A DNA stretch of 62,956 nt, counting the filler, from Babesia bigemina (Eukaryota), in NCBI RefSeq assembly GCF_000981445.1. It is 8 parts of 8 records of this genome, joined end to end, with 100 filler letters (N's around TTAATTAATTAA, not from the genome) between each part and the next. Parts side by side here need not be neighbours in the genome. Positions count along the whole stretch, not along the records: positions 24,659 to 33,249 come from NW_012236966.1; 7 more parts are not named here. The stretch is one strand, 5' to 3'. This document shows positions 16,821 to 53,389 of this stretch, one piece after another. The stretch's first letter is position 1. Every line of letters begins with the position of its first letter. A program made the translations under genes and the position numbers. Under the pieces are notes generated by a model, which saw only the letters and a list, made by a program, of their open reading frames with translations, was not told the DNA's origin and did not search any database.

Positions 16821-16879
16821 CGAATTACCTCGCCATAATACCGCTATGACCTCTTTAAACCATAGCAATAACTTGTGCC

Positions 16880-19800: not shown

Positions 19801-22800
19801 TATTGGCCTGCTGCAAACCAAGAACATTGAGAATGTGAAACACAACCTCAATGAGCTCTGCGCAGCGGTGAGATGGGCAGCCAACGAGGTCAACTGGTTT
19901 ATGAGGGAGATGAAAAAAGGGCAGATTGATGAGAAACTGGCTGGGATCAGGAAACAAATCGACGACCTACGTGTCAAGGAGATACAGGGTACTATCACCC
20001 TATGCACTGACTTTCTTCAAAAAGCCACTGAATCAGGACAAGTTACAATCAAGGCACTTGAAAAATATGTCGATGAACAAGTTGCCGACGCCATTAAAAC
20101 ACTCACCACCCAGGCCAAAAAGCACTACGTCTCCACCCTCAAGACTGAGCTGCAAAACTTCACCGCCAGAGTTCAGGGCCACTTGACGGGACTGACGACG
20201 CTGATCGACAAGGATCTGACCATTGGTTACAAGGGGCTGATGAAGACTGTGCAGGGGGTTAAGTTTATTGTTGAACACAAAAAGGAAGCTGAGTTCTACA
20301 CGTCGGGAGGTACTAAGCTGTTTGATGCAATTAAGAACGCTGTACCTCCGCCACCCGAGCAAGAGAGGCCAACCAAGGAACATTTCAAGGCCTTAGTAGA
20401 TGCCTTCGAGCATTACTTCAACAATATCCACGGCTACGTCAAGGAAGAGATTTCGAGGCTGGACAAGCAGTACAAACAAACGCTTAATTACCAGCTAACA
20501 CACACTGAATCGAAATACCTTGAGAAGCTCTACACCTCCAGGCTCAACGCTGCACATACCGCGATCAACAACCTACTTGATCACATTAATACAAGCCACC
20601 GCTATAACCACGAACTCCCCGCCTTGCTTGACAGTCTCTCCTCCGCAACTGCCACCCTCGCTCCCGAATCCTTTGCCAGGACCACGACCCCCCTGCTTGA
20701 CGGTATCGGCAAGGGTGTTGAAGGATTTGTTAGTGAACTTGAAAAGGCCTACAATAATAGATATGATGGAGGCTCCGATGGCATAATATTAGTCGACGCA
20801 AGAACTACGAAAGTTACGGATGATGGCAAAAAGTGCGCTAAAGTGTGCCTCAACGTACTATCCATCTTGTATACGGAGTTAAACACATTGGTGAAGCATT
20901 GCCAGTCGTCATCCAGAAGTGAACAAATTAATAAATTGACCAATGTAGGCAAGTTCTTCCTTGACCAAGGCTACGATGTTTCCGACGATGGCGAGCAGAA
21001 TGGTGAATTGCAAGACGACAAGAGGATGACAGTGTTCTTCATCTACAAACGTCTTTTCGGATATGATGACAATCACATCTACAAAAAAGATAGATTCAAC
21101 CAAGAAATCGGCCCGCTTAAAACTTTACACGACTGCCTCCAAACATATTACCAAGTCGGCCACGTTGCCACTTCATCCTCCAAAAAAACACCATGTAGCA
21201 TATTCGAGATGCTATGTTGGCTATCTGGCCTGCCGTGCAATACGGTTTACACGGAGTTGTGGCGTGATGCTGTGAGTGACCTGTTTGTCGATCCAAAGAA
21301 GCAGACGACGGAAGATGATATAAGCATGTCGTTTGTCAGCGACGAACCCCTGCCGGCGTATCCCACCTCAATCGAATGTGATGCTGCACAGCGAGCAGTG
21401 AAGCGCCTATGCTCAAGGTCGTACGACGTTCTGATCAAAATAGTAGGTTACGGCAACGAACACACGACATACGCCGTCGACTACTGCGACAACAGTCTGC
21501 GTCTATCTTACCCATCCGATCCGTCACAGTGCCTTGAACTATTGCTGGACATCCTACGCAGATTGTTACCGGTGTTCAGATTCTTGCATAGCCAGTGCAA
21601 GCTGGAAACTAAACACTACGGTTGGTCGAATTGCCTGTACGGCAAGGATATCTTGACCGGTAAATCGCATTGTGATAAGCATCCAGATGACAAGCAAACC
21701 GACTGCCTGCCCAGATCACCGCTTCAATCGTACCTTAGTGATACGTTACCCGGCCACTTACCTCACAACCTAACTACCATGGGATGCAAATCCGTATGCA
21801 GCAACTGCCCCAAGGGCCTGCCTGGACAGCCGTGTCTGACACCACTTGGCTTCAGAGGTTTCTCTGGAAGTACGAAGCAAGGCAAAGAGCTATGCAAAGT
21901 GCTGACCAAATTCTTAGACAATTCGAATATTAACACGCTGTTCGGTCTGTTGCCTAAGCCGCCATCTACGTTGCCCGAACACTTCCAATTTGCGTTGTCG
22001 TTGGCCAATATGCTAAAGAATGACGGCTCTCGTACAAATGACGTCAAAACAGCCTTCGACAAATCAATCAACGAGGTGTCCATCGACCTGCATAAAAACT
22101 CAAGCAAATTAACAAGTGCGCTACGTAATGTGTATCTGAATGACCACAGCCATGAAGGCAATGCGCATCACAAAGCTAACGAAGCCGATCTGTACACGCT
22201 CTCAAAAACAACGTCGTGTATTCAACCAAACGATATGAATATTCACTGCGGTCCCTATCTCTCGTCTACATGTTTCGATACATACAACTATCTCGCAGAA
22301 AAACATTCCGATCTGTATCTCTCGTGGGCTGTGTATCTACCGTGGACTTTCTATAACTACCTGAAATCATTACTTGACGCCTTCCAACAAATTGATTGTG
22401 TTAACTTTGGATGTACCAGATGTCATTGTAAACCAGGTGGCCACGGTAAAGAATACAACTGTAAGTGCAACGCCTTAGTAACTTGTCGCGGCGTTATTAG
22501 TACATTCTACAGTTACGGATTCACATTTGGTAGCGCTAGCCAATTGATGCACACTGACAGCAGACGCTACTGCCGAAACTTCTACAACCAAATCTGTAAC
22601 GTACTGAAATCGCAACACTTCACCAAATTATTTGAGGAATGTGACAACTTCATTTGGACCATCAGAGAACCGTTCACCTACCTAGTGCTGGCTCTCTGGT
22701 CACTCTCCCTCTTCTACCTCATCTGCGTGATGATTGGCAGACTGGATGTGCTCCACATCAGGTCACACCTGAGGATACCGTCATCGCACAAGATAACAGC

Positions 22801-22864
22801 GCAGTCACTGTTGGCTGCAGCGCAAGTCGGAAGGCTTGCCAAGATATCGTATCTACAACCGTGA
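16880..22864 (+). CDS. ves1: VESA1-like antigen, gene 3 (about 1994 aa, tail type B); true start uncertain because the ORF opens at TTG
   Basis: ESIDWLIQVR, YSDLDRLCDAVMGFLSGVL, SPLQSYLSDTLPGHLPH, TM FTYLVLALWSLSLFYLICVMIG, tail GRLAKISYLQP. Confidence 0.8.
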   Translation: MSPFTSLLTESIDWLIQVRYGNGGNNGLGELSQALKTLIEEAISNATNSLQSEKSKLECPVKYKGDESTCQAMDRQIKEAKDAKNSVHPKTQIPITELEKQKQRCQNNHTYYRDGSKQKAYEDIEERQKQLEDLKSKLTKFTEELNKDGNNNILTHLCDGLQTFLGFDSDTKGYTGQGIVYSDLDRLCDAVMGFLSGVLKDVSEKQPYKVGKDILENIVTDFESKLSTGRKGFEVIETVAQRVREYNDTVSERSSEVRKKITDLDDEMTTIQDQIKKTYPTKEEKDAEPLADKIEKSKIEVTEMVEKCKKLAKTFKADLFNLKDKIKDLGHEANEQINKARDNVEREGQRLGRVQKNEKEQYEEMETKITSVLLVVKDKLNQEIRSQVNGLISLLNEKVKNILKECRHICRTLENYLLDLDKWMETAKTFIDNVIEKQVGAIKKEVDEAAKDRKPNHKKNLDTSISELEAGLKQRVTELDTWNKAAGSAVSAAKEKCKTIGDMVETKSAGSDKIHGLAKTMQEKADKLREAAKEVKKEIGQWVKAALTQVKEMDGKLKHDLGKLKEQINQKIGDYVRGYIKEVRSKVKSIEGDTRNPKSGLWGVKQKVKDYAETYKKFYQKNTGMVYQWIEQILESGAVDSYLTHYGTTERQNAKNKVKEKIAEVAETEVDTQPKAEGNVKATLNNIKDFLTNFAERVKIKLAGGEFTKFVDSVRKDTGIVMSEKSHLEAAVKIILRLVATAASKLANEINELALKQDKDSLGQYLDDALDVAGTLEQNLGDAFQSTNDHVGNVTSPALNDNIPKLIIAILNGELPAAKGDKVGEQVTLKNVKGFSQYNAYINQQNLNLTDPRAALTGVDDDTEGTLPAAIGDIERQVTSKLTAGDLASEIDKSTTFQSPFDQITTKLKEIAGLVDSATKTTTKVQGGQDSNDGIQQYLGALDEMRTGGGTVNLTAKGLESHAPVKGLETIKNDIGLLQTKNIENVKHNLNELCAAVRWAANEVNWFMREMKKGQIDEKLAGIRKQIDDLRVKEIQGTITLCTDFLQKATESGQVTIKALEKYVDEQVADAIKTLTTQAKKHYVSTLKTELQNFTARVQGHLTGLTTLIDKDLTIGYKGLMKTVQGVKFIVEHKKEAEFYTSGGTKLFDAIKNAVPPPPEQERPTKEHFKALVDAFEHYFNNIHGYVKEEISRLDKQYKQTLNYQLTHTESKYLEKLYTSRLNAAHTAINNLLDHINTSHRYNHELPALLDSLSSATATLAPESFARTTTPLLDGIGKGVEGFVSELEKAYNNRYDGGSDGIILVDARTTKVTDDGKKCAKVCLNVLSILYTELNTLVKHCQSSSRSEQINKLTNVGKFFLDQGYDVSDDGEQNGELQDDKRMTVFFIYKRLFGYDDNHIYKKDRFNQEIGPLKTLHDCLQTYYQVGHVATSSSKKTPCSIFEMLCWLSGLPCNTVYTELWRDAVSDLFVDPKKQTTEDDISMSFVSDEPLPAYPTSIECDAAQRAVKRLCSRSYDVLIKIVGYGNEHTTYAVDYCDNSLRLSYPSDPSQCLELLLDILRRLLPVFRFLHSQCKLETKHYGWSNCLYGKDILTGKSHCDKHPDDKQTDCLPRSPLQSYLSDTLPGHLPHNLTTMGCKSVCSNCPKGLPGQPCLTPLGFRGFSGSTKQGKELCKVLTKFLDNSNINTLFGLLPKPPSTLPEHFQFALSLANMLKNDGSRTNDVKTAFDKSINEVSIDLHKNSSKLTSALRNVYLNDHSHEGNAHHKANEADLYTLSKTTSCIQPNDMNIHCGPYLSSTCFDTYNYLAEKHSDLYLSWAVYLPWTFYNYLKSLLDAFQQIDCVNFGCTRCHCKPGGHGKEYNCKCNALVTCRGVISTFYSYGFTFGSASQLMHTDSRRYCRNFYNQICNVLKSQHFTKLFEECDNFIWTIREPFTYLVLALWSLSLFYLICVMIGRLDVLHIRSHLRIPSSHKITAQSLLAAAQVGRLAKISYLQP

Positions 22865-25141: not shown

Positions 25142-28100
25142 CTTGTTGATAGTGACCATTTTCTCACTGACGATGCTACTATAAGAGCCTTGAATGACAT
25201 TGACTCCAAGCTCATTAGCCTTGGTCACCTGGCTGGCCAACTTGGAGGATTTGTTGGTCAAAGTGACAGTGTTAAGAAAGCCGTTAAGAATGCTATTATC
25301 GCTAAAATTAACAGTACTGAAGAGCTTAAAAATGTTTACTCTTCTCTTGTTACTACCCTTTCTGAGTCTGTCAAGTCTGGTGTCCAGGCTGGTGACACCA
25401 AGAAAATTAGTGAGCTTAATAAGTTAGTTACTGCAGAAATTCAGCGTCTTAATGATCAACTTAGTAAGCCTAATAACCTTAATAATAACTCTCCTTCTTC
25501 CCCCTCTCCCTCTGCTGACCCAGCCAAATTGCAGTCCAAGTTGGAGGCATTGGAGAAAGTGAAGGAGCTTTGTGAATTTTATGAGAATTTCAAGAATCAT
25601 CCAAATGAGCCTAAAAATATCCTTGTTAATTTATGTTCCGGCCTCGAAACCTTCCTCGGCTTCAATCCATCTTCCAAAGGCTACGACGGCTCTGGGATTG
25701 TGTACTCCGACCTTGACAGGCTGTGTGACGGGGTGATGGGATTTTTGAGTGGTGTGCTTGGTGCGGTGAAAAATGATCCAAGCGTTAAGACATACACTTT
25801 AATAACCGAACTTGACTTTAATAAACTTTTAGATAATATGCATAATGGTGTTTTTGGTTTTGGTGTTTGCATAGACCATGTGATGCGTGTACTTCATGAC
25901 TATGTTGCCGAGTTGCATAAGCGTACTGAGGCAGTTATGAAGCCTGTTAATGGCATCAATAGATCGATAGAAGAACACAAACTTTTAATTCAGCAGGAAA
26001 AAGATGTTGAGCTTTTCGACCAGATTGCCGGGTGGACTCAACGCGCTGCGCAGTACATCGACCAAGCCAGGCAATCCAGAAAAGCGTTAAATAATCTCGA
26101 TTCCGATTTATACGGTAAGTTGAAATGTAATGTATCATTGGTGTTGCAGGCGACGGAGACCTTTATGGAAAATTGTTCAAACAGCGACCTCCATGAGATC
26201 CATGTGGCATCATTCAATACAATGTTGAAGGTATCAGGTAAAATTGGCGAGAGGTTTCAAGCAAGCATCAACAGAGTACAATATTATTTAAATGCTAAGA
26301 TTAACGAATTACATAAAAATCTATCTGGTTTTCGTGATACGCAATTCAAAGAATTGTACGACGCTGTAACAGGAGTCTACGTGGCTTTCAAGGATGTGTA
26401 CGGAGACATGGAATCGCTTCTACCGAAGTATGCACGAGAAGTTGTTGGTAAGGTGGAAAGTATCTCCCATTCCTCGGAGCAGTTTAAGCTGTCATTTGAA
26501 AAAACGCAACGTGCGCTGTTGTCGGCGACGCAACAAGTGGCGACGCAACTCGGAAATTTTGAAAATCTGCAACGTGTGGATGGAATAGACGGCAGCCTTA
26601 GAGGCAGAGTGAAATTTTTAAAACACATCGGCGAAAGTGAAAATGCTTTTACTGTCGTTAATGGTTACTTGACGAAGCTGAACGAGGATGTCATGACGCC
26701 TCTGTCGATTGCTATGTATGGGATAGGTGAGGGATTTGGACAGAATGTTCTGTCGAAAACCAATAGTGATGTAGACGACGCCATAAAACACGCTATAGGG
26801 GAGATAAAATTGCTTAAAAGTATTGACAGCAAATTTCCAAATTTTGGCGAGCTTCGAAGTAAATTACAAGAACTTGGTATTGATATGGGTAGTGTTGGCG
26901 ACGACCTTAAGGGCAAATTCACGGATGTCGATGAACTCAATGCAGTGATTCAGAAGCTGGAAGAATCCTCTAAAATGGACAAAGGTGACGCGACAGTAAT
27001 TTTCACAGAAATGGCCACTGTAACTGAGGCCATATCTTCGCATTCTACGGATGTTTTTGTAAAAGTGCTGAATGAAATTAAAAAGCAAGTAACTGAAGAA
27101 ATTAGAGATGTAGCCGGCGCTATTAAGAGCATGGTTACGACTATTCATACCGGTGTAAAATATGATCAAAATGACAAGGAGTATGATTACGGTGGTGGCG
27201 CCATCGGCATAGGCAATTCGGCATCTGGAGTTCTGAAACTGATTAGTGAGTTTATATCCAATATTTACAATCAGGTTACAATGCTTCATAAAAGTGTTGG
27301 AAAAGAGGGTGAAGATGCAGGGAGCAGTAGCGTTTACAGGGATATAAAAAAACTTCACGCGAGCATTGGTATTCTAAGTACAGAAATTGAGAAAGTTGGC
27401 AAACAAGTCACAGAAGTTGAGAAAAAACTGGAAGACTGCATGAAGTCGACGTTTGAATTTATTAACGAGGCTCCTAAATGGGCTGAAAAAATCATGGATG
27501 ATTTACGCCAAGACGTGAATGGAGAAATTGCCAATGGTTTCGAAAACGTTCAGAAAAAGGCTAAGGAGATATATGTAAAGAGGAAGCAATTGGAGCTGAA
27601 CTCCTTGCACTCCATTGTAAACGAACAACATAAACGGATTGAGGAAATACTCGATGAAGATAAACGTAATGGCGTTAAAGGATTAATGAAGCGGATGAAT
27701 GATTACAAGTTGCTCAATGATTTTAAAATTGTCCTCACCCCGTCCTCTAAACATGACCCTACTAAATTCTCCCAACTCGGCGCAAAGTTCCAAGACTACG
27801 TCGACAAAATTCTAGAGTACCTAAAGTACCAAGTCATGACCAAAAGTAAGCCTCCTCAGCCTACCGACCACTCCAGACACGTCGAAGGCATCAGGGAGTC
27901 GTTTGACGTATTGCTCCGATATCTCATGTATACGGGTCATAGTAAATATTTCAATTTTACTCACGAATCCGATGAATTACTGTCCAATCTGATCGATTCC
28001 GTCCATTCCCTAACTCCCCTCACCTCCACCCTCGACCCCCAAGCGCTGCCGGACGCAGGACGGCCCGTGCTCAGGGCGCTGAAGGATGGGATGCTGGGAT

Positions 28101-30403
28101 TCGTGGGAGAGTTGGGGAAGGGGTATGTGAACAGGTATGATGGGCATAAGGATGTTATTGATATGAGTAAATTGGTTGATACAAAAGGTAATTTGACGAA
28201 TAATGGCAGAAATTTGTCGAAGGTGTTTTTGACGATTTTGGAGATGATATTCTACAGACTCGAAAAATTAAGGAGGAGTTGTGTAACAGGTGGTGAATGC
28301 ATAAATAATAAGACGTGTTTAACTGAGTTAGTAAACGGTAATAAAAAGGAGAGTGTCCTCGGCAAATGGCTGCAGTACCATGGTTATAGGGTCTCCTACG
28401 ATGAGGAGACGCAGAACGGTGAGTTGAAGAGAGACATGACGGGGAGAGATATTCATGCCATTCTCGTCAAAAGCGGGAAAGATCGGAAACATCTCTTTGC
28501 ATCTGATAATTCTAGGTTGGACAGCGGTGCTCTTAGGCAGCTTATCGGCCACCTTGGCACGTACTACGATGTATGCCATATTCGTTATATCGAGAAGCCA
28601 AAACAACCGACCACTGTTAAACAGATGCTTCACTGGCTATGTGGATTCTGGCATAATCCGATGCGTGATAAGGTTAGGTTCTCGCTCAAGGAATACTTCC
28701 CCAAACCTAAGGGACGCGAGGAGGAAGATTATTCCACTATTAAGAGCAGCGACATTAGCCTAGATGCAACTACAACGATTACGCCTCACTCACTAGACGA
28801 CAATATCAAACGCCTTTGTGCGTATTCCCATGACACGTTAATCGCAATCCTGGGTCACGGTCAAGAGGAGGGCCGATACGCAGTTGACTTTCGCACAAAC
28901 CCCGACGGTTTGTGGTATCCAATTAACAAATATCAATGTTTCGATATGTTTGTAGATATGTCGTATAAGTTGTATGACCAACTGTACTTCGTATTGGTTC
29001 AGTGCCAGCGCAATTCAGAGGCCAATAGCTGGCGTGACTGCTATTACGGCAGGTACGTGGGCGGTTCGTCATGGACTTGTAATGAGAAGCAATGTGTCAA
29101 CCAAAACTGTCCCCAAATAGCTGACCAAAAGGCTAACCAAAATGCCAACCAAAAGGCTGACCAAACGTGTGGCCAGCACCCTGTATGCGGTGTCAAATCA
29201 CCTTTGCAATCCTTCTTAGAGGACGGACTGCAGGGCTTCCTTCCTCACCATTTTACGAAGGTGGGATGTGGAGTTCAGTGTTCAGTGAGCAATCACAGAG
29301 GAATTCCATGTAAGACACCAATGGGCTTTGGTGATATTGGTAATGCCGCATCGCATACCCAGAAGGGTGAGTATATCATGAAATCGCTTGATGAATTCTG
29401 CGGGAAACCGAGTAGTCCGCTGAGAAACCTCTGCAGCTACTTCATATGCCTTTTACAGAGGACCCCGCAAACGCTGGATGATATGTTCGCATTCTTCAGC
29501 AATTACCTGCGAAACTGGAATGATATAGACCAGCAACGTAGGAAGCATATACAAGGGGCACTGGATAACGCAACCGCCAAGGCGTACTTCGGCGTCAATT
29601 ATGGTGAGCTCAATGTTAATTCCATATTCTATAGCAGTGCTAGCAATAAAAATCATAGCAATGGAGATTTGCTGTGCCTCCTCAATTGCGATAATTATTC
29701 AACGATGACCTGCGGCCGTTTTATGCAGCCTTTCGGGTTCAACACATGGAATATTTTCGCAGCGAAGAACTCAGGCAGATACCTATCGTGGATTGTTTAT
29801 CTCACGGAAACATTCTACAACCTGTTGCAACAACTATACGAAGAATGTTGCAACAATTGCACCAAACCAGGAACCAGGTGCCACGGTAAAGTATGCCCGG
29901 ATGAATGTAAAGTGAAGTCGGCATACAAATCTGAGGACACGAAAACCGCACTAAGCAATCAAAAGCACACTGATGGTTGCAAATCAATAGCGTTATGTCC
30001 ACTCACGCGTCCTACGTTAGCAAGATACGGTTTTGTACTGCAGAGTATATCTAACCTCAGTGGCGAAAATGGCCCCGAAACGAAACGCACGTGTCAGGAT
30101 TTGTGCAACTCCTTACAGATTGTACTTAACAACAAAGAAGCGGACAAACATGTTCTCGCCGAATTTGTATACCGAACTATTCCGAACTTCCTCTGGGCTA
30201 TCAGAAGTAAATTCTTCTGGACCACCGTAGCCCTCTGGTCACTATCACTCTTCTACCTCATCTGCGTGATGGTTGGCAGACTGGATGTGCTCCACATACG
30301 CTCACACCTGAGGATACCGTCGTCGCACAAGATTACAGCGCAGTCATTGCTGGCGGCGACGCAAGTCGGAAGGCTTGCCAAGATATCGTATCTACAACCA
30401 TAA
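25142..30403 (+). CDS. ves1: VESA1-like antigen, gene 4 (about 1750 codons open, tail type B); lacks the SIDWLIQV head and a start ATG
   Basis: Frame opens after TAATAA at 25136-25141 (ORF track start 25190 is TTG); conserved YSDLDRLCDGVMGFLSGVL, SPLQSFLEDGLQGFLPH, TM and GRLAKISYLQP. Confidence 0.75.
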   Translation, partial: LVDSDHFLTDDATIRALNDIDSKLISLGHLAGQLGGFVGQSDSVKKAVKNAIIAKINSTEELKNVYSSLVTTLSESVKSGVQAGDTKKISELNKLVTAEIQRLNDQLSKPNNLNNNSPSSPSPSADPAKLQSKLEALEKVKELCEFYENFKNHPNEPKNILVNLCSGLETFLGFNPSSKGYDGSGIVYSDLDRLCDGVMGFLSGVLGAVKNDPSVKTYTLITELDFNKLLDNMHNGVFGFGVCIDHVMRVLHDYVAELHKRTEAVMKPVNGINRSIEEHKLLIQQEKDVELFDQIAGWTQRAAQYIDQARQSRKALNNLDSDLYGKLKCNVSLVLQATETFMENCSNSDLHEIHVASFNTMLKVSGKIGERFQASINRVQYYLNAKINELHKNLSGFRDTQFKELYDAVTGVYVAFKDVYGDMESLLPKYAREVVGKVESISHSSEQFKLSFEKTQRALLSATQQVATQLGNFENLQRVDGIDGSLRGRVKFLKHIGESENAFTVVNGYLTKLNEDVMTPLSIAMYGIGEGFGQNVLSKTNSDVDDAIKHAIGEIKLLKSIDSKFPNFGELRSKLQELGIDMGSVGDDLKGKFTDVDELNAVIQKLEESSKMDKGDATVIFTEMATVTEAISSHSTDVFVKVLNEIKKQVTEEIRDVAGAIKSMVTTIHTGVKYDQNDKEYDYGGGAIGIGNSASGVLKLISEFISNIYNQVTMLHKSVGKEGEDAGSSSVYRDIKKLHASIGILSTEIEKVGKQVTEVEKKLEDCMKSTFEFINEAPKWAEKIMDDLRQDVNGEIANGFENVQKKAKEIYVKRKQLELNSLHSIVNEQHKRIEEILDEDKRNGVKGLMKRMNDYKLLNDFKIVLTPSSKHDPTKFSQLGAKFQDYVDKILEYLKYQVMTKSKPPQPTDHSRHVEGIRESFDVLLRYLMYTGHSKYFNFTHESDELLSNLIDSVHSLTPLTSTLDPQALPDAGRPVLRALKDGMLGFVGELGKGYVNRYDGHKDVIDMSKLVDTKGNLTNNGRNLSKVFLTILEMIFYRLEKLRRSCVTGGECINNKTCLTELVNGNKKESVLGKWLQYHGYRVSYDEETQNGELKRDMTGRDIHAILVKSGKDRKHLFASDNSRLDSGALRQLIGHLGTYYDVCHIRYIEKPKQPTTVKQMLHWLCGFWHNPMRDKVRFSLKEYFPKPKGREEEDYSTIKSSDISLDATTTITPHSLDDNIKRLCAYSHDTLIAILGHGQEEGRYAVDFRTNPDGLWYPINKYQCFDMFVDMSYKLYDQLYFVLVQCQRNSEANSWRDCYYGRYVGGSSWTCNEKQCVNQNCPQIADQKANQNANQKADQTCGQHPVCGVKSPLQSFLEDGLQGFLPHHFTKVGCGVQCSVSNHRGIPCKTPMGFGDIGNAASHTQKGEYIMKSLDEFCGKPSSPLRNLCSYFICLLQRTPQTLDDMFAFFSNYLRNWNDIDQQRRKHIQGALDNATAKAYFGVNYGELNVNSIFYSSASNKNHSNGDLLCLLNCDNYSTMTCGRFMQPFGFNTWNIFAAKNSGRYLSWIVYLTETFYNLLQQLYEECCNNCTKPGTRCHGKVCPDECKVKSAYKSEDTKTALSNQKHTDGCKSIALCPLTRPTLARYGFVLQSISNLSGENGPETKRTCQDLCNSLQIVLNNKEADKHVLAEFVYRTIPNFLWAIRSKFFWTTVALWSLSLFYLICVMVGRLDVLHIRSHLRIPSSHKITAQSLLAATQVGRLAKISYLQP

Positions 30404-30547: not shown

Positions 30548-30950
30548 AAGCAACGTGTTAACCTAGCACCCAGGCAAAGTGCTAAGCTGGCACCCAGGCT
30601 AAGTGCTCAGCAAGCACATAGGCAACGTGTTAACCTAGCACTCAGGCAAAGTGGTAACCTAGCACTCAGGCAAAGTGCTAAGCTGGCACCCAGGCAAAGT
30701 GGTGACCTAGCAACCAGGCAAAGTGTTGACCTAGCACACAGGCAAAGTGCTAAGCTAGCACCCAGGCAAAGTGCTAAGCTTGCAACCAGGCAAAGTGCTG
30801 ACCTAGCACTCGGGCAAAGTGCTAAGCTGGCAACCAGGCTAAGTGGTAAGCTAGCAACCAGGCAAAGTGGTAAGCTAGCAACCAGGCAAAGTGGTAAGCT
30901 AGCAACCAGGCAACGTGCTAAGCTGGCACACAGGCAAAGTGCTGAGCTGG
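30548..30950 (+). repeat. 24-bp array D
   Basis: CAGGCAAAGTGCTAAGCT(A/G)GCAC units. Confidence 0.95.
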
Positions 30951-31464
30951 CGGATGAACCGTAATTTGGTGGGTGTTGTAGCACGTTGATTGCCCGGTGC
31001 TTTGAGTTGTGCGTTGACTGTGAGAGGCGTCCGCGTTGCCCATTGAGTCAGTGTCACGTGAGGCTGGGTGATTGGTCGCTAACGTAGGCGGCCGTGAGGG
31101 CCGCGGCGGGTGACCTAAGTCGTGTGTTGCGAGTCACTGGCAGGGTGGCGTAATCCGCGTTGGCCCGGTTAAGTAGTATATATAGGCGTCAATGTAGCGA
31201 TTGTTAATATCACATTTAGGCACGTAGCCGACACGCTCCGCCAGCATGGCGCCGATACCGCGGCTCGTAGCACGGTGCTGCTGCACTGTGGGAGTTGAGC
31301 GCACGGGGTTCGCTGCAATTTTCATGGCGTTGCCAATGGTATATAATTTAGAGTGAGAGTTGGTGCTGATCACATGCGTCGCGTCAGGACAACCGTGGTA
31401 TCCCGGGCAGCGTGGGTGTCAGTGGCCTGGGCTGGGGGGATACAGGGGTGAGGGTGAGTGTTGA

Positions 31465-31846
31465 TGAGGGGACTGGGAGCGGCAGTGGTAGTGTTGCAGT
31501 TGGTGAGTGCGTTGCTAGGTGATTGATATGTTAGCAGGTTGAGGGGAGTGGGAGCGGCAGTGGTAGTGTTGCAGTTGGTGAGTGCGTTGCTTAAGTGATT
31601 GATATGTTCGCAGGCTGAGGGGACTGGTAGCGGCAGTGTTCGTGTTGCAGTTGGTGAGTGCTGCTTGGGTGATTGATATGTTCGCAGGTTGAGGGGACTG
31701 GGCGCGGCAGTGGTACGTGTCGCAGTTGGTGAGTGCTGCTTGAGTGATTGATATGTTTGCAGGCTGAGGGGACTGGGAGCGGCAGTGGTAGTGTTGCAGT
31801 TGGTGAGTGCGTTGCTAGGTGATTGATATGTTTGCAGGCTGAGGGG
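31465..31846 (+). repeat. five tandem 74-76-bp units, each containing a GTGAGT...GCAG 34-36-nt intron-like segment
   Basis: TGAGGGG unit starts at 31465, 31540, 31616, 31690 and 31765, with a partial sixth at 31840. Confidence 0.92.
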
Positions 31847-31860
31847 ATAGGGAGGAGAAG

Positions 31861-32328
31861 ATGTCGTGGGAGAAGTGTAAGTGTAACAAAAACTGTACGA
31901 AGAGTGACTGTTATTGCTGTTACGTGTGTTGTACAGGATGTACTAGAACAAGGTGTTTTTATTGTATGGAATTCTATAGTGAGCGCAGTCGTGGAATGAA
32001 ACAATGCCATACTAATGGATGTAAAGAGTGCAACACCGCCGAATGTCCATGTAAGTGTTGTGATGAGAAACGCTTTGAAGCTTCCCGTCGACAACGTGCC
32101 GCCGGTCAACAGCAATCCCTTACTTCCTCCCATGTCTCCTCTTCTACCACCGTACAACGTTCCACCGGCGGACCCGGTACTGCTCACACCACGAATCCCT
32201 CCAAGTCTTCAGATCTCACAGTTGCCATGATCATCGTCCCCGTCGCCCTCATCATCGTCGTCATCTGCGTCATGGTCTACTTCCGCATCCGGCCGTTCCA
32301 CAGGGTGCGGTATCTACTGCGCAGCTGA
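31861..32328 (+). CDS. small Cys-rich, Ser/Thr-stalk, C-terminally anchored membrane protein (155 aa)
   Basis: ATG-started ORF with an N-terminal Cys/Lys-rich region (CKCNKNC..CYCCYVCC), an S/T-rich linker, hydrophobic VAMIIVPVALIIVVICVMVYF and basic tail RIRPFHRVRYLLRS; no signal peptide. Confidence 0.7.
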   Translation: MSWEKCKCNKNCTKSDCYCCYVCCTGCTRTRCFYCMEFYSERSRGMKQCHTNGCKECNTAECPCKCCDEKRFEASRRQRAAGQQQSLTSSHVSSSTTVQRSTGGPGTAHTTNPSKSSDLTVAMIIVPVALIIVVICVMVYFRIRPFHRVRYLLRS

Positions 32329-32411
32329 TCGCAATCACGTAACTGGCAACTGACATCTAATGTTCTAGACAGAGTAATGATCGCGTTGATGACCAGTCAC
32401 ATGAGCAGTGA

Positions 32412-32573
32412 GGTGACCAAGCACCTTCCCCCTCCGCCATCGCCGCCGTCATCGTCGCCATCATCGTCGCCATCATCCTGCTCGACCTGTGCATCTTCCG
32501 CTTCCCGGTGGGCCGCAACATCCGCGATTTCCTCGTACGCAAGATACCCTTCTGCATCGCGTTCTACAGCTAA
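32412..32573 (+). pseudogene. orphan TM+tail coding fragment (…SAIAAVIVAIIVAIILLDLCIFRFPVGRNIRDFLVRKIPFCIAFYS*)
   Basis: Manual translation: 53 codons between an in-frame TGA (32409-32411) and TAA; no ATG. Confidence 0.65.
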
Positions 32574-32693
32574 TATCCGCAATGTGTTAGCGCAAACATC
32601 GTAATCCAAGTTCCACCGATCACCTAACTGGCAACTGACATCTAATGTTCTATACAGTAATGATTGCTTGATGACCAATCACATGAGCAGTGA

Positions 32694-32855
32694 GGTGACC
32701 ATAACCCCGCCCCTTACATCATCGCCGCCGTCATCGTTGCCATCATCGTCGCCATCATCCTGCTCGACCTGTGCATCTTCCGCTTCCCGGTGGGCCACAG
32801 AATCCGCGATTTCCTCGTCCGCAAGATACCCTTCTGCATCGCGTTTTACAGCTGA
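32694..32855 (+). pseudogene. second orphan TM+tail fragment (…PYIIAAVIVAIIVAIILLDLCIFRFPVGHRIRDFLVRKIPFCIAFYS*)
   Basis: Manual translation; paralog of 32412-32573. Confidence 0.65.
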
Positions 32856-32955
32856 TCTAAGCAATTTAGTAGCGCAAAGATCTTAATCAAAATCCCGCTG
32901 ATCACCTAACTGGCAACTGACATCTAATGTTCTAGACAATGTATTGATCGCGTTG

Positions 32956-33102
32956 ATGACCAATCACATCAGCGGTGAGGTGACTACTTCCCCCGCCCCT
33001 TACATCATCGCCGCCGTCGCCCTCATCATCATCGTCATCTGCGTCATGATCTACTTCCGCATCCGGCCGTTCCACAGGGTGCGGTATCTACTGCGCAGCT
33101 GA
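32956..33102 (+). pseudogene. duplicate of the small gene's TM+tail as a 48-aa ORF (MTNHISGEVTTSPAPYIIAAVALIIIVICVMIYFRIRPFHRVRYLLRS*)
   Basis: Manual translation; 33030-33200 is nearly identical to 32255-32425. Confidence 0.55.
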
Positions 33103-33184
33103 TCGCAATCACGTAACTGGCAACTGACATCTAATGTTCTAGACAGAGTAATGATCGCGTTGATGACCAGTCACATGAGCAGTG

Positions 33185-33249
33185 AGGTGACCAAGCACCT
33201 GACCAATGCCACGACCAAAGTGGTGACCAAGACGCTGCCCAAAGTGCTG
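33185..33249 (+). repeat. 12-bp array C, truncated by contig end
   Basis: GACCAA every 12 nt. Confidence 0.85.
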
Positions 33250-33349
33250 NNNNNNNNNNNNNNNNNNNNNNNNNNNNNNNNNNNNNNNNNNNNTTAATTA
33301 ATTAANNNNNNNNNNNNNNNNNNNNNNNNNNNNNNNNNNNNNNNNNNNN

Positions 33350-34717: not shown

Positions 34718-34776
34718 CGAATTACCTCGCCATATTACCGCTATGACTTCTATAAACCATAGCAATAACTTGTGCC

Positions 34777-37700
34777 TTGTCACCCTTCACTTCCCTCCTG
34801 ACTGAGTCCATCGACTGGTTGATCCAGGTGAGGCATGGGAATGGTGACGGTGACAAGGGTCTTACCAAGTTGTCTCAAGCTTTGAAAAAGTTGATTGAGG
34901 AGGCTATTGAGAAGGCTACTAACTCCCTTAATGCCGAAAAATCTAAACTTGAATGCCCTGTTAAGTATGCTGGACATCCCTCTAACTGTGCCTATATTGA
35001 TAAGCTGATGAAACATGCTAAAGATTCTGACAATGTCGATCAGCCTAAAAATGTTTTTACTAAGCAGCAAATAACTGATATGAAAAATAAATGCATTGCT
35101 TCCCACTCCCGTCGTTATGATGATGCTACTAAGAAAGCCTTGGATGGCATTAAAGAGCGTCAGAAACAACTTGATGAACTTAAAAAGAAACTCGAAGCTT
35201 TTATCGGCAAAGATAACAGTGCTGAAGAATGTAAAAACCTTTTAGAGAATCTTTGTGACGGCCTCGAGACTTTCCTCGGCTTCAATCCATCTTCCAAAGG
35301 CTACACTGGCAATGGCATTGTCTACTCTGACTTGGATAGGCTGTGTGACGCGGTGATGGGATTTTTGAGTGGTGTGCTTGAAGCAGTGAAAGATGAAAAT
35401 GAAGTGACAACTTATGATCAATACATTAGTGGAGAGGATAAAAAGCTTAAAAGTGTACTTGACACCTTAAATAATAATATTGGCTCCGGGCGTCATGGGC
35501 TTGTGGCGTCTGTCGCGGAGGTGAAGGGGTGGTTGGAGGGGTATGAAACACAAATTAAGGCATACAATGCTGGTGTAACAAGCACGTTAGATAGGTTGAA
35601 ATATAATATTAATGACGACCTTAGCTCTATTAATGAACGTAAATCGCTCGCTGATCAGCATGACAGTTGGAAGAGCAGTGTTACAAAATATGCAAGTAAT
35701 ATCAAACAGGCGAAAATAGCCTCCACAAATCTCGACAACAAATTGAAAAACGACTTAGAGGTACCGCTCCGAAATATTAGTAGCGTTTTGGTGTTTATGA
35801 AGAAATCAGCAGAAAGCACGGATTTGAGGTCTCAGGCTGCAACATTGGACGATGATGTCGTAAAAATTGAAAACGAAATAATTACCCAGATAGAAATTAG
35901 ATCACAGGGAATTCGGGATAAGCTACATGATGAGTTCTGTGAAATGGAAGCAAAAATTAGGACTTTGAACGATACAAGGAAGGAGCGGATTAAGGTTATG
36001 AAGCAGGCCATACGAGAATTTCGGAGGTTAATTGACGTGCATTTTGGGGATTACCGCGACAGTTATAAGAAAAAGATCATGAAAACATTTATTGATATTA
36101 AGACATTGTTAAGCAATGTAAATAAGACCGAGGCATTAACGGGTGCGAAAGATGGAAACTCTTGGCTTAAGCAAAAAGTTGTGAAGATAAGGGAGGAATT
36201 GGAGGCAACTGGCGCCGAACTGGCGCGTTATCTGAAGAATGCCACTAATTTGATTCAGGCGGCAGAGAGACTGCGTTTGGAAGCTGAGACGAAGGCGACG
36301 GATGCGTATGATAAATTAAAACTACACTCAACACTGGACAAGAAAATCGGAGAAATTGTACTAGCGAAAGGTAATATTACAGCAGCTCCAGGAGCAGCGA
36401 AAACTAAACTCAAATCGTTGGTGGAGCATATTACGAAGGCGGTTGGAAAGTTGGATGAGAAGATTAAAGATGACCTTGCCGATTTAAAACTTGAAGTCCG
36501 CTCAGGTATTGCATCATATGTAACAGGGCTGGTTGATAAAATTGTTGAAGCCGCCGGAAAGGCCAGTCTCGGAAGTATTTCTGCTAGCAACTCCGGTGTC
36601 GAATTTTTGAAGAGTGCTGAAGGCATAAAGGATAAAGGAAGCTTGGGGAAAGCACTTAATTATATCGTTAATAACGGCAACACAAATAGGGAGCAGACAT
36701 ATTTGGAGGCAGGTCTATATTATCTGAAAAGAACCAAGGACGAATGGAACAAAATCGTAAACAGGAAAATAAATATCACCTCCGACTTGTCAAAGGATTT
36801 GAAAGATGCAGCTAGTCAGGCATTCCTTGAGGCTGATACGGATGCTACCAACGTTAAGAAGCTAATGCACGCCTATAATATTCACGTAACAGATCATCAA
36901 AATAATACGCTGGCAACTGCGATCGCTGACTTAGAAAAATATGCGCTAACTGAAATGACGTCCATCGTAACCAGCAAAACCACCGAAATTGGTAAAGCCA
37001 TTGGCGAGGTTAGAACTGAGGTGAATGCTATCAAGGATATTCTGCGAAGTGACAAAAATCATGACGTCATTCATACATTGAAACAATTGCACGACACAAT
37101 TGGTCAGCACGATACGAAAGCAGGTGACGACAGCCTCGGAAAACTTATGATAAAAATGGATAAATTGCAGCAAGCTGATTTGTCTGAAAGCTTGGCCGGC
37201 AGAATCCAAAAGGCCATTTTGGGGGTGATTGATAATGTAAATATGTTGGAACTAGTGCCCGAAGATATTGAGGAAAAGAGGAAGGAAGTAGGAAACTTAG
37301 TGGACGATTTGAAAGCTGGATTAAGTCACAACATCAGTAATGTTATCAAAGTAATAATTGACACAGACACAGCCCTGGATGCTGCCACTGAAGAACTACA
37401 TAAACGTGTACTTTCAGCGCGTCAAACACTGCAGGGTTATATTACACGTGTACAAGTCGACATCTCTGATGAATTGAAGCATATCTTCAAAAGTTTGACT
37501 GCCGAGGTGAGAAGATTATATGCCAAAAGACATGAAGCCTATCTGAAAGAATTGCAGAAAATAGTGCAGGCCGCACTAGCCGACGCCGCAGTGATAATTG
37601 ACGCGAATCTAAAGTCAGGTGTTAAAGGTCTCATGAGATGGATGAAAGGCGAGATAGACTATTACGGTATTGAACGTTCTCCAAATAAGCTTGAATACTT

Positions 37701-40269
37701 AGACAGATCGATAAGGTCATCCAGCAATGGTAGAGAAAAACTAAAAAATCTATCGGATGCATTTAAAACATACTTGAATACTTTCTACGAATACATTAAA
37801 TTCGAAGTCACAGACGCAACCAAAACAGTAACCAACCCCCCTCCCACCGTGCCACCCACCGACCCAGCCAACAAGCTAACCAAAATCAAAACTAACTTCG
37901 ACAAATTACTTACTCATTCAAGTAACTCAAATGACTCTAAAAAGTATAATTATGACAATGATTTCGTTAAATTACGTGAGTCCCTCTCCACCTCCCTCCA
38001 CCATTTATCCCCCTCCGCCTTCGCCAACCCCCGGCACCCGGAGCTGCTCGATGCGGTTAGAGCGGGGCTGCAGGGGTTTGTCAAGGAGATGGAGCGGGTG
38101 TATGTGAACGGGTATGATGGAGGGGAGGATATCATAATAGTAGATGCAAGAAATCAAAAAGTAACCGATGACGGCAAAAAATGCGCAAAAGTATGTCTGA
38201 CATTGTTCTCCACACTTCATCACGTATTAAGTGTATTAAGGAAATATTGTTATCGCACATGTAAATATATGCAAATTAACAAATCAACTGAACTTGGCAG
38301 CTTTTTCAGCAAGCAAGGATACTGTATATCCGACCGAGGTGAACAAAACGGTGAATTGCAGGACAAAATTAGTATGCAAGGAACAAAAGTACATAGTTTA
38401 CTTGCCGGGCAATTAAATACTGTTTACAACTCCAACAAGGGATTCAAAAATGCTCTTGAAAAGCTTAACGACTACCTTACCGATTATTACCAAGTCAGGC
38501 ACATCTCCACTTTCACTGCCAAGAGACGACCATGCAACGTATTCGAAATGCTCTGTTGGCTCTCTGGGTTACCGTGCAATGCAGTGTATGAAGATATGCT
38601 GAGTGGAGCTGTGAGTGACCTATTCGAAGATCCAAGTAAGCAGGTCGCGGTTGAAGATGAAGGCCATGAAATCACAGTTTCAGACATGAGACAAGACTCC
38701 ATACCGGCGCACCCGTACAACATGTCATATGATGACACGCAAAAAGCAATAACACGTCTTTGCTCGAAATCATACGATGTTCTGGCAAGAATCCTCGGCA
38801 CCGGAGACGCGTACTCCATGTACGCCGTCGACTACTGCAGCAATGCACTAAATCTTCATTACCCGCCTAAAGGTGAAGATTGCCTTCATCTGCTGCTTGA
38901 CGTCCTTCACAGATTATTACCGTCGCTTAGATTCTTGTATAGGCAATGCGGCGTACGTGCTGCGTACTACGGATGGGCTGATTGCCATTACGGTAAACAG
39001 GTCGGATGTGCCAACTGGCCATGCAAGGATCATCCAACTAACAAAGCAGCGTGCGAACCAAACGGTCAAGCAACGTGCCAGGCAAATAGTCAACCAAATT
39101 GCCGGCCAACTTCTCCTTTAATGTCTTACCTCAATGACTGTTTACCCGGTCACTTGCCTCATCAGCTGCGTACCATAGGCTGCAAAACGGAATGCGCAAC
39201 CTGTCCGAAGTCCAAGCCTGGCATGTCATGTTTGGTACCGCTTGGGTTTAGGCGTTTCTCCGGCCAGTCACGTACAGGCAAGGAACTGTGTGATACACTG
39301 GAGAATTTCTTCTCCAATTCATATATCACAACACTATTTTGCCTTATGCCAAAACCGCCATCTACACTTGCTGAACACATGAGCTTCGCAATGAACTATT
39401 TTGGAAAGTGGCAGACGGACACATCAAGAAATATAAACGGTCTTCAAGTAGCATTCGAGAAATCAATGAAGAAGCTATCAATACATCAAGTCGAGGATGC
39501 GAGCAACTTGAGAAGTGCGCTCAGAGATATCTATGGAACAAAGCACAACAATGAGCCCAGCAAGCTGTCATCTCATCAGGACTCGAAACATGCCGATTTG
39601 TGGAGTGTCTGCCTACCTAACGAAACAAAGCCATGCTCCGATTTGAAGCACCAATGCGCTCCTTATATCTCCTCAACTTCTTCCGATGCGTACAATTACC
39701 TTGCTGAGAAGCATTCAGATCTATACCTCTCATGGGCTATATATCTACCGTGGACATTCTACAGCTGCCTGAAATCCTTGCTGGATGCTTTCCAACAAAT
39801 AGATTGCGGAAGCTCTGGTTGCACTAAATGTTCATGCAAGCCGGGAACACATGGCGTAGAATTAAACTGCACGTGCAACGCATTGATAAGCTGCCGTGGC
39901 GTGACGCCTACATTCTACCAATATGGTTTCACATTTGGATACACTAAAAGCATATACGGTACAGACAGAAAATACTGCCGCAATTTCAACACGCAATTAA
40001 GCAACGTGCTTAAATCCGACTACTTCACCAAATTATTTGAGGAATGTGACAACTTCTTATGGATCATCAGAGCACCATTCTCCTACCTTGTGCTCACCCT
40101 CTGGCTCCTCTCTTTCCTCTACCTCATCCACATCATGGTCATCCGCCTTGACCTGCTCCACATCAAATCGCATCTGCATAGTCCCTCATCACATCGCATA
40201 GCTGCTCAATCTTTACTTGCTGCTGGACGCGTTAACAAGCTTAACAGGGTGTTTTACCTGCAACCATAA
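34777..40269 (+). CDS. ves1: VESA1-like antigen, gene 5 (about 1830 aa, tail type A); ORF opens at TTG
   Basis: ESIDWLIQVRHGNG, YSDLDRLCDAVMGFLSGVL, SPLMSYLNDCLPGHLPH, TM and NKLNRVFYLQP. Confidence 0.8.
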   Translation: MSPFTSLLTESIDWLIQVRHGNGDGDKGLTKLSQALKKLIEEAIEKATNSLNAEKSKLECPVKYAGHPSNCAYIDKLMKHAKDSDNVDQPKNVFTKQQITDMKNKCIASHSRRYDDATKKALDGIKERQKQLDELKKKLEAFIGKDNSAEECKNLLENLCDGLETFLGFNPSSKGYTGNGIVYSDLDRLCDAVMGFLSGVLEAVKDENEVTTYDQYISGEDKKLKSVLDTLNNNIGSGRHGLVASVAEVKGWLEGYETQIKAYNAGVTSTLDRLKYNINDDLSSINERKSLADQHDSWKSSVTKYASNIKQAKIASTNLDNKLKNDLEVPLRNISSVLVFMKKSAESTDLRSQAATLDDDVVKIENEIITQIEIRSQGIRDKLHDEFCEMEAKIRTLNDTRKERIKVMKQAIREFRRLIDVHFGDYRDSYKKKIMKTFIDIKTLLSNVNKTEALTGAKDGNSWLKQKVVKIREELEATGAELARYLKNATNLIQAAERLRLEAETKATDAYDKLKLHSTLDKKIGEIVLAKGNITAAPGAAKTKLKSLVEHITKAVGKLDEKIKDDLADLKLEVRSGIASYVTGLVDKIVEAAGKASLGSISASNSGVEFLKSAEGIKDKGSLGKALNYIVNNGNTNREQTYLEAGLYYLKRTKDEWNKIVNRKINITSDLSKDLKDAASQAFLEADTDATNVKKLMHAYNIHVTDHQNNTLATAIADLEKYALTEMTSIVTSKTTEIGKAIGEVRTEVNAIKDILRSDKNHDVIHTLKQLHDTIGQHDTKAGDDSLGKLMIKMDKLQQADLSESLAGRIQKAILGVIDNVNMLELVPEDIEEKRKEVGNLVDDLKAGLSHNISNVIKVIIDTDTALDAATEELHKRVLSARQTLQGYITRVQVDISDELKHIFKSLTAEVRRLYAKRHEAYLKELQKIVQAALADAAVIIDANLKSGVKGLMRWMKGEIDYYGIERSPNKLEYLDRSIRSSSNGREKLKNLSDAFKTYLNTFYEYIKFEVTDATKTVTNPPPTVPPTDPANKLTKIKTNFDKLLTHSSNSNDSKKYNYDNDFVKLRESLSTSLHHLSPSAFANPRHPELLDAVRAGLQGFVKEMERVYVNGYDGGEDIIIVDARNQKVTDDGKKCAKVCLTLFSTLHHVLSVLRKYCYRTCKYMQINKSTELGSFFSKQGYCISDRGEQNGELQDKISMQGTKVHSLLAGQLNTVYNSNKGFKNALEKLNDYLTDYYQVRHISTFTAKRRPCNVFEMLCWLSGLPCNAVYEDMLSGAVSDLFEDPSKQVAVEDEGHEITVSDMRQDSIPAHPYNMSYDDTQKAITRLCSKSYDVLARILGTGDAYSMYAVDYCSNALNLHYPPKGEDCLHLLLDVLHRLLPSLRFLYRQCGVRAAYYGWADCHYGKQVGCANWPCKDHPTNKAACEPNGQATCQANSQPNCRPTSPLMSYLNDCLPGHLPHQLRTIGCKTECATCPKSKPGMSCLVPLGFRRFSGQSRTGKELCDTLENFFSNSYITTLFCLMPKPPSTLAEHMSFAMNYFGKWQTDTSRNINGLQVAFEKSMKKLSIHQVEDASNLRSALRDIYGTKHNNEPSKLSSHQDSKHADLWSVCLPNETKPCSDLKHQCAPYISSTSSDAYNYLAEKHSDLYLSWAIYLPWTFYSCLKSLLDAFQQIDCGSSGCTKCSCKPGTHGVELNCTCNALISCRGVTPTFYQYGFTFGYTKSIYGTDRKYCRNFNTQLSNVLKSDYFTKLFEECDNFLWIIRAPFSYLVLTLWLLSFLYLIHIMVIRLDLLHIKSHLHSPSSHRIAAQSLLAAGRVNKLNRVFYLQP

Positions 40270-43544: not shown

Positions 43545-43548
43545 AATT

Positions 43549-53363: not shown

Positions 53364-53389
53364 TTGAATTACCTCGCCATAATACCTCT

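What the first reader, a model, noticed from the sequence alone, without database searches (positions are those of the whole stretch)
31465..31860. Tandem repeat made of exon-intron units upstream of a small surface-protein gene
Seen: each ~75-bp unit contains G|GTGAGTGC...GTGATTGATATGTT(T/C/A)GCAG|G, a consensus donor and acceptor 34-36 nt apart, and most length variation falls inside this segment. Intervening exons are 40-41 nt with no ATG, and the last acceptor (31837) is 23 nt before the ATG at 31861. Known: Babesia introns are typically this short. Inference: a 5'UTR with five tandemly amplified introns, i.e. intron gain by tandem duplication. Each intron contains an ATG (GATATG), so retention would add upstream ATGs and could tune translation.
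Basis: partly seen in the sequence, partly recalled or inferred. Interest (0 to 1): 0.7.

Follow-up and report, generated by a model that had tools for sequence, protein, structure and literature searches.

The report
Repeat-multiplied introns in a gene leader
In a cattle blood parasite, a 75-base repeat in front of a small membrane-protein gene carries five copies of what is likely a short intron; the same repeat, in varying copy number, precedes most members of an unnamed gene family, making this a likely new case of a known way of multiplying introns, though no RNA yet shows the splicing.

Summary
31465-31854 is a 75-bp repeat (5.2 copies). It has five GT..AG segments of 34-36 nt with 40-41-nt spacers, and the last acceptor lies 23 nt before ATG 31861. 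A strict, post hoc intron pattern appears in 0.13% of shuffled units; a loose one in 9%.

The gene encodes a 155-aa Cys-rich protein with one C-terminal membrane helix. It has 30 unnamed Babesia bigemina paralogs and is neither ves1 nor ves2. In 24 of 30 public gene models the repeat's exon part is translated, with up to 7-8 unit starts against 6 here, so the repeat is family-wide and variable in number. It is non-coding: a stop sits in frame just before the ATG. Those models therefore likely start wrongly.

Corrections: the first unit carries an ATG (31464), and two further intron-like segments lie upstream.

Splicing is not shown. No RNA run covered the stretch, and 0 of 30 paralogs pass 1 CPM in a published cross-strain dataset.

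Best reading (0.6): 5'UTR introns multiplied by expansion of an intron-plus-exon cassette, as in Cryptococcus CNN00420, but free of frame constraint. Tuning of translation is untested.

The parts
31058..31087 (+). Candidate upstream 30-nt intron (GTGAGG...CTAAC...TAG), likely a diverged relative of the repeated intron
   Evidence: Loose intron pattern; similarity to repeat intron 3, p = 0.002 against shuffles and p = 0.05 with the ends fixed
31210..31216 (+). Best initiator-like site upstream of the gene (TCACATT, A at 31212); candidate transcription start
   Evidence: Top score of a B. bovis initiator matrix (PMC4148916 Table 2) on the + strand of 30950-31861; prediction only, and the - strand has sites as good
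31338..31351 (+). AT-rich patch; alternative candidate transcription start
   Evidence: Sequence; moderate initiator score at 31343. Starting here with all seven intron-like segments removed gives a 254-nt leader without ATG (one of the seven chosen post hoc)
31353..31387 (+). Candidate 35-nt non-repeat intron that contains ATG 31374
   Evidence: Loose intron pattern; ATG accounting
31448..31466 (+). Two extra donor-like sites (31448, 31454) followed by ATG 31464 at the head of the array
   Evidence: whether these donors remove the ATG is not shown
31463..31860 (+). 75-bp tandem array: five full exon+intron units plus a last partial exon unit and a purine-rich linker to the ATG
31503..31537 (+). 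Intron-like segment 1 (35 nt)
   Evidence: meets the loose but not the strict pattern
31578..31613 (+). Intron-like segment 2 (36 nt)
31654..31687 (+). Intron-like segment 3 (34 nt)
31729..31762 (+). Intron-like segment 4 (34 nt)
31803..31837 (+). Intron-like segment 5 (35 nt); acceptor 23 nt before the ATG. Its own ATG (31828) opens a 4-codon uORF ending 18 nt before the main ATG
31840..31842 (+). TGA in frame with the main ATG; bars N-terminal coding by the repeat
31861..32328 (+). 155-aa ORF: 18 Cys in residues 1-72, Ser/Thr-rich spacer, one membrane helix at about 121-143, short basic tail; member of an unnamed B. bigemina family
32334..33249 (+). About 282-bp array of extra membrane-helix cassettes (two of a second type, one of the gene's own type), each behind an acceptor-like stretch
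   Evidence: both cassette types occur as C-termini among paralogs

Best explanation
The repeat lies in the non-coding leader of a small Cys-rich membrane-protein gene of Babesia bigemina, and each 75-bp unit is likely one 34-36-nt spliceosomal intron plus a 40-41-nt untranslated exon, multiplied by likely slippage or unequal crossing-over. A unit that holds a whole intron stays spliceable when copied, and in a 5'UTR it need not keep a reading frame. Copy number can therefore drift among the roughly 30 family members (inferred). Full splicing would remove the five intronic ATGs; retaining any one intron would add a 4-codon upstream ORF and probably lower output (inferred, untested). Public gene models of the paralogs translate these leader exons and likely miss the true start at the conserved ATG behind the last unit. 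Shown: repeat anatomy, non-coding status, family-wide presence, variable unit number. Inferred: transcription across the array, splicing, mode of expansion.
For: Anatomy and chance tests: the strict pattern occurs in 0.13% of shuffles. It is on the sense strand, and the last acceptor is 23 nt before the ATG. Splice-signal columns are invariant (p 0.035-0.10). GC is 46% in the segments against 62% in the spacers.

Two more intron-like segments lie on the same strand in the 498-nt unique leader and none on the other strand (shuffle p about 0.06). All 7 ATGs between 31343 and 31860 lie inside GT..AG segments (one segment chosen post hoc). The best + strand initiator-like sites lie upstream of the array.

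Family: 30 B. bigemina hits. 21 of 30 models share exact 5-mers with the window's exon units (332 5-mers) against 3 intron 5-mers, and 10 of 30 hold the junction peptides expected from the same donor and acceptor. Up to 7-8 unit starts occur in paralogs against 6 here. 22 of 24 models show an ATG-compatible dipeptide or Met within 9 residues of the last unit, against a 20% background.

Precedent: Cryptococcus CNN00420 (PMC2395259, passages).
Against: No RNA evidence of splicing was obtained. 0 of 30 family members are among the 3,721 genes at 1 CPM or more in blood stages or kinetes (PMC9806345 supplement). That dataset maps one strain on another, and the paralogs are only 36-54% identical over most of their length with near-identical C-termini, so mapping loss may explain the absence.

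The gene-model evidence is partly circular: ab initio predictors trained on B. bovis must cut out stop-containing segments to extend an ORF. The loose intron pattern arises in 9% of shuffles, and the strict one was defined post hoc. Substitutions are not enriched in the introns (38 against 36).

ATG 31464 remains in the leader unless a further donor is used. The leader is long: 254-517 nt with all seven segments removed, against a B. bovis median of 152 nt. GTGAGT clusters also occur antisense behind all 7 long ORFs of the window, so the motif may have a DNA-level role.
Confidence: 0.6

Rival explanations
1. The array is an untranscribed or unspliced G-rich minisatellite upstream of the gene. 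It is one of several satellites of this variant-antigen locus (a recombination tract or a protein-binding DNA motif), and its splice-like signals are incidental.
For: The window is full of 12-, 20-, 22- and 24-bp satellites around the long ORFs. The loose intron pattern occurs in 9% of shuffles. Antisense GTGAGT clusters sharing GCTAGGTGA lie behind 7 of 7 long ORFs. 0 of 30 paralogs pass 1 CPM in one dataset. The G-rich strand has a G4Hunter maximum of 2.16.
Against: The strict pattern is rare by chance (0.13%). None of the four short satellite families shows a per-unit intron pattern (1 loose hit, in one 24-bp array). Sense orientation, the acceptor 23 nt before a conserved ATG and two further intron-like segments upstream all fit a spliced leader. 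No good initiator-like site lies between the array and the ATG.
Confidence: 0.25
2. The introns are real and under selection as a regulatory device: the number of units sets the chance that all ATG-bearing introns are removed, so repeat length tunes or silences each family member.
For: Every intron holds an invariant ATG that gives a 4-codon uORF on retention. Unit number varies among paralogs. The family sits among variant-antigen genes.
Against: The ATG lies between branch site and acceptor and may be carried along by the duplication. There are no expression or retention data. Neutral expansion explains the anatomy equally well.
Confidence: 0.1
3. The exon units are protein-coding, as the public gene models have it, and give a signal-peptide-like start and Gly/Ser linkers.
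For: Public models translate them in 24 of 30 paralogs. The reading from ATG 31464 begins with a short hydrophobic stretch. The mature ORF lacks a signal peptide.
Against: Exons of 40-41 nt shift frame. A TGA precedes the ATG in its frame. 0 of 1,186 splice paths through acceptor 31837 extend the protein. Paralog models read the same leader in different frames and often run through the Cys-rich domain out of frame.
Confidence: 0.05

Closest known systems
Intron gain by expansion of an intron-containing repeat, Cryptococcus neoformans CNN00420 (Sharpton et al. 2008, PMC2395259; passages read)
   Same: A tandem unit holding a full intron plus exon ends (about 107 nt there, 75 nt here). The introns are near-identical, the copy number varies, and slippage or unequal crossing-over is proposed.
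   Different: There the repeat includes exon sequence of one gene and is resequenced and splice-confirmed. Here it is a non-coding leader with no frame constraint, shared by most of a roughly 30-member family, and splicing is not shown.
Arabidopsis TOUCH3 internal duplications (Knowles and McLysaght 2006, as described in PMC4974935 and PMC2395259)
   Same: Multiplication of a pre-existing intron with its flanking exon sequence.
   Different: Two duplications in one gene against 5 or more units across a family. The original paper was not read.
Rogers (1989) tandem-duplication model, in which an exonic AGGT gives a new intron (as described in PMC4974935)
   Same: Tandem duplication raises intron number.
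   Different: Here donor, branch site and acceptor are all inside each unit. The AG|GT at two unit junctions (GTTGAG) is not a consensus donor, so this is not creation of a new intron.
Variable internal tandem repeats in human segmental-duplication paralogs (De Grassi and Ciccarelli 2009, PMC2812944; passages read)
   Same: Repeat-driven changes of intron structure among recent paralogs, 8 of 27 intron changes lying in UTRs.
   Different: The passages I read describe repeats that are spliced out or activate cryptic sites, not arrays in which every unit is an intron plus an exon.
B. bovis ves1-beta genes with 2-11 introns variable in number and place (PMC2034396, PMC4066756; passages), and BbigVes2 / smORF small genes beside ves1
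   Same: A Babesia multigene family at variant-antigen loci with variable intron number; small companion genes beside ves1.
   Different: This protein has a C-terminal membrane helix and no signal peptide (ves2 is the reverse) and no detectable likeness to the window's long-ORF C-termini. The ves1-beta intron sequences could not be read (papers not held), so whether they too arose from repeats is open.

Membership tests
Spliceosomal (U2-type) 5'UTR introns | GT donor consensus, branch site and YAG acceptor at a plausible distance | tested here: met
   5 of 5 units loose, 4 of 5 strict; 0.13% of shuffles strict, 8.9% loose
Spliceosomal (U2-type) 5'UTR introns | Lies upstream of the start codon and is not translated into the protein | tested here: met
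   In-frame TGA at 31840; 0 of 1,186 paths through acceptor 31837 extend the ORF
Spliceosomal (U2-type) 5'UTR introns | Transcribed and removed from the mRNA | not testable with these tools
   No RNA holder listed; eight runs laid give no coverage of the array
Intron multiplication by repeat expansion (CNN00420 / TOUCH3 type) | Repeat unit contains a whole intron plus flanking exon sequence; introns near-identical | tested here: met
   units 1 and 5 differ at 2 columns
Intron multiplication by repeat expansion (CNN00420 / TOUCH3 type) | Unit number differs among alleles or paralogs | tested here: met
   6 unit starts here against 7 (P0024) and 8 (P0021) in paralog models; read from predicted proteins, so lower bounds; no paralog DNA was available
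Intron multiplication by repeat expansion (CNN00420 / TOUCH3 type) | Polarity (gain, not loss) shown with orthologs | not testable with these tools
   No Babesia genomes in the collections; metagenome scans were empty
Rogers-type new intron from exonic AGGT duplication | Donor and acceptor both derive from one duplicated exonic AG|GT | tested here: not met
   Each unit has its own GTGAGT donor and GCAG acceptor
BbigVes2 | Signal peptide present, C-terminal membrane domain absent (PMC4066756) | tested here: not met
   Hydropathy peak 3.37 at residues 121-139; at most 0.61 in the first 40 residues
VESA1 (ves1) | Conserved VESA C-terminal domain | tested here: not met
   hhalign of the family against six long-ORF C-termini: probability 0.8%, 8 columns; family profile against the 7 long ORFs: best E 1.3. 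That these long ORFs are ves1 is recalled from their terminal motifs; Pfam gave no VESA hit
VESA1 (ves1) | Cys/Lys-rich domain (CKRD) homology with B. bovis VESA1 | not tested
   No B. bovis VESA1 sequence came from any call; the representative search never left the queue

The most novel reading that the evidence does not exclude
An unrecognised family of about 30 small Cys-rich membrane antigens sits among the variant-antigen genes of B. bigemina. Each is gated by a length-variable array of ATG-bearing 5'UTR introns: recombination changes the number of units, and with it the share of fully spliced, translatable mRNA. This would be a heritable, splicing-based rheostat for a variant gene family.
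Probability: 0.1. Interest if true: 0.8.

Novelty: new variant of a known kind. Interest (0 to 1): 0.47.

Why it matters
If spliced, this is a family-wide, frame-free case of intron multiplication by repeat expansion in an apicomplexan. [quoted passage not shown] Whether or not it is spliced, the analysis points to an unnamed B. bigemina family of at least 30 small Cys-rich membrane proteins whose public gene models likely start in the wrong place. The Gly/Ser 'repeats' in those database proteins would then be translated leader. I found no description of the family or the repeat in ten literature searches. Two key ves papers were not held, and one supplement of PMC4066756 and the B. ovata gff3 file could not be read.

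Tried and rejected
RNA: no RNA holder listed. Eight listed runs were laid, about 1-2% of each read. Seven gave 0 reads; one gave 3 partial reads under 90% alike on the low-complexity membrane-helix codons, and none on the array. This is no test.

Genomes: no whole genome is held for the window. Metagenome scans with a DNA pattern and with the protein alignment found nothing.

Protein: longer homologs, none among 7,982 candidates scored. Pfam, no hit above cut-off. ESM Atlas, best 0.82, uninformative. AlphaFold model of low confidence (pLDDT 66, pTM 0.29), with no Foldseek or PDB sequence match. The search of cluster representatives did not finish, so the range beyond B. bigemina rests on the word-indexed searches only.

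RNA fold of the leader: less stable than shuffles (z = +2.0), so a structured RNA is rejected.

Coding on either strand: rejected; donor-to-donor periods are 75, 76, 75 and 74 nt.

The idea that the exon half is itself a decayed intron: p = 0.012 against shuffles but 0.20 with the ends fixed, so left open.

Six family locus tags were not found in the searched supplements of PMC4066756, PMC5660447 or PMC9531838. PMC5660447 seems to use other ids, so that blank says nothing.

Xiao 2010 and Wang 2012 (ves1-beta introns, ves promoters) were not held.

Full report
Setting. The window is an array of seven long ORFs (1,687-2,077 aa) separated by 12-, 20-, 22- and 24-bp satellites and assembly gaps. 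I read the long ORFs as ves1 variant-antigen genes from recalled terminal motifs; Pfam gave no VESA hit. The small gene at 31861 has homologs only in Babesia bigemina: 13 by single sequence and 30 by profile, all named 'hypothetical protein'. The window's own protein is not in the collection.

Observation. TRF reports 31465-31854, period 75, 5.2 copies. Five GT..AG segments of 35, 36, 34, 34 and 35 nt are separated by 40, 40, 41 and 40 nt without ATG. The last acceptor (31837) is 23 nt before ATG 31861, and each segment holds an ATG. Two qualifications apply. Length variation is three events, two in the intron and one in an exon, and all differences split evenly, 38 against 36. The upstream-most exon unit has an ATG at 31464.

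Is it more than chance? A strict intron pattern, defined after seeing the sequence, is met by 4 of 5 units. It occurs in 0.13% of 20,000 shuffles of one unit and at 3 places in 39,777 bp of long-ORF sequence read on both strands. A loose pattern is met by 5 of 5 units and by 8.9% of shuffles. The 15 donor, branch and acceptor columns are all invariant (p = 0.035; 0.06-0.10 if changes are counted as events). The segments are 46% GC and the spacers 62%. Outside the long ORFs and the array, the loose scan finds five sites in the window. Two of them lie on the same strand in this gene's unique leader, at 31058-31087 and 31353-31387 (2 or more in 6% of shuffles). With a start in the AT-rich patch near 31343, all seven upstream ATGs fall inside GT..AG segments, one of which I chose post hoc. 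A B. bovis initiator matrix (PMC4148916, Table 2 and passages read) scores best on the + strand at 31212, upstream of the array. The - strand has equally good sites, so this is weak.

Coding or leader? A TGA at 31840 is in frame with ATG 31861. Of 1,186 splice paths built from 7 donors and 9 acceptors, 7 extend the protein, all through a poor acceptor at 31850 and none through 31837. Unit periods of 74-76 nt rule out coding on either strand. The array is therefore non-coding. After removal of the five introns, ATG 31464 opens a 27-codon uORF unless the donors at 31448 or 31454 are used. Retaining any intron adds a 4-codon uORF; the last ends 18 nt before the main ATG.

The family. No paralog DNA could be fetched, but the predicted proteins carry it. 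21 of 30 share exact 5-mers with translations of the window's exon units (332 5-mers) against 3 intron 5-mers. 10 of 30 contain the junction peptides expected from the same donor and acceptor, and 3 read through the donor. 24 of 30 show unit-like peptides, with up to 7 (P0024) and 8 (P0021) unit starts against 6 here; these counts are lower bounds. In 22 of 24, a Met or a dipeptide compatible with an out-of-frame ATG follows within 9 residues of the last unit, against 20% elsewhere in the same proteins. This matches the purine-rich linker and ATG seen here. The models come from ab initio predictors trained on B. bovis with manual improvement (PMC4066756 methods, part 1 read). They show that Babesia-trained splice models accept these sites, but they are not RNA evidence and are partly circular. 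The likely true product is about 150-170 aa: Cys-rich N-terminus, Ser/Thr spacer, one membrane helix and a basic tail. It fails the tests for BbigVes2 and for the VESA1 C-terminus. Its fold could not be determined.

Expression. No RNA holder was listed and eight runs gave no test. In PMC9806345 (methods passages and supplementary table searched), 0 of 30 family members are among 3,721 genes at 1 CPM or more. 18 were sought by locus tag, 3 by prefix counts and 9 by accession, and neighbouring genes are listed. This counts against strong expression in blood stages and kinetes. The study mapped one strain on another, however, and this family combines divergent N-termini with near-identical C-termini, so lost or multi-mapped reads could give the same blank.

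Mechanism. Most likely (0.6), an ancestral short intron with its 40-nt neighbour exon in the 5'UTR was copied repeatedly by slippage or unequal crossing-over in a repeat-rich, recombining locus. Each copy keeps donor, branch site and acceptor, and a UTR tolerates 40- or 41-nt exons. Shown: anatomy, non-coding status, family-wide presence, variable number. Inferred: transcription, splicing, mode of expansion. The main rival (0.25) is an unspliced minisatellite; antisense GTGAGT clusters behind all seven long ORFs warn that this motif recurs at these loci for reasons not known. A selected splicing rheostat (0.1) and the coding reading of the public models (0.05) are less likely.

Comparison. The closest case is Cryptococcus CNN00420, where a 107-nt repeat holding a full intron varies in number among strains (PMC2395259, passages). 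Arabidopsis TOUCH3 is similar, and Ma et al. call such cases multiplication of an existing intron, not creation of a new one (PMC4974935, introduction). Human paralogs with variable internal repeats include intron changes in UTRs (PMC2812944, passages). On intron size, I could read only a B. bovis mean of 60 bp and B. microti introns of 20-25 bp, and one 36-bp putative smorf intron. Thus 34-36 nt is plausible but not shown to be typical.

Verdict. The mechanism is known; what is new is a UTR array shared by a whole, unnamed and likely mis-annotated parasite gene family. Splicing awaits RNA. Novelty: new variant of a known kind. Interest 0.47.

Noticed in passing
window 32305-33249 (+): The 3' end is also a tandem array (about 282 bp) of membrane-helix cassettes of two types, each behind a branch/acceptor-like stretch. 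A donor-like site at 32305 and acceptors at 32368/32372 could replace the last 7 residues. Public models of some paralogs splice on into a second helix (P0013, P0016, P0021). These may be alternative last exons or spare copies for gene conversion.
   Followed up: partly
window, about 75 nt behind the stops at 14943, 22864, 30403, 40269, 49482, 59047 (+) and near 1354 (-): All 7 long ORFs carry 2-3 GTGAGT on the antisense strand just behind the stop, ending in GGTTG(C/T)AG over the last codons and partly sharing GCTAGGTGA with the 75-bp unit. This could be spliced antisense RNA, a 32-35-nt sense 3'UTR intron or a DNA motif.
   Followed up: partly
window 8710-14943, 16859-22864, 25142-30403, 34756-40269, 43507-49482, 53327-59047: The long ves1-like ORFs (label recalled) begin directly behind a 22-bp satellite without an obvious intact start region; they may be silent donor copies.
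   Followed up: no
P0001-P0030 (public B. bigemina proteins): At least 24 of 30 database proteins of this family begin with translated leader units, and several run through the Cys-rich domain in another frame; the family appears unnamed and mis-annotated.
   Followed up: partly
window 31763-31799 against 31803-31837: The two halves of the unit resemble each other at their ends (G-TGAG...TTGCAG), so the exon may be a decayed intron and the unit an older duplication; p = 0.012, but 0.20 with the ends fixed.
   Followed up: partly
window 33250-33349 and six other gaps: Assembly gaps with a 12-base linker between runs of N join the contigs, so order across gaps is not certain. The repeat and the gene lie within one contig.
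   Followed up: no
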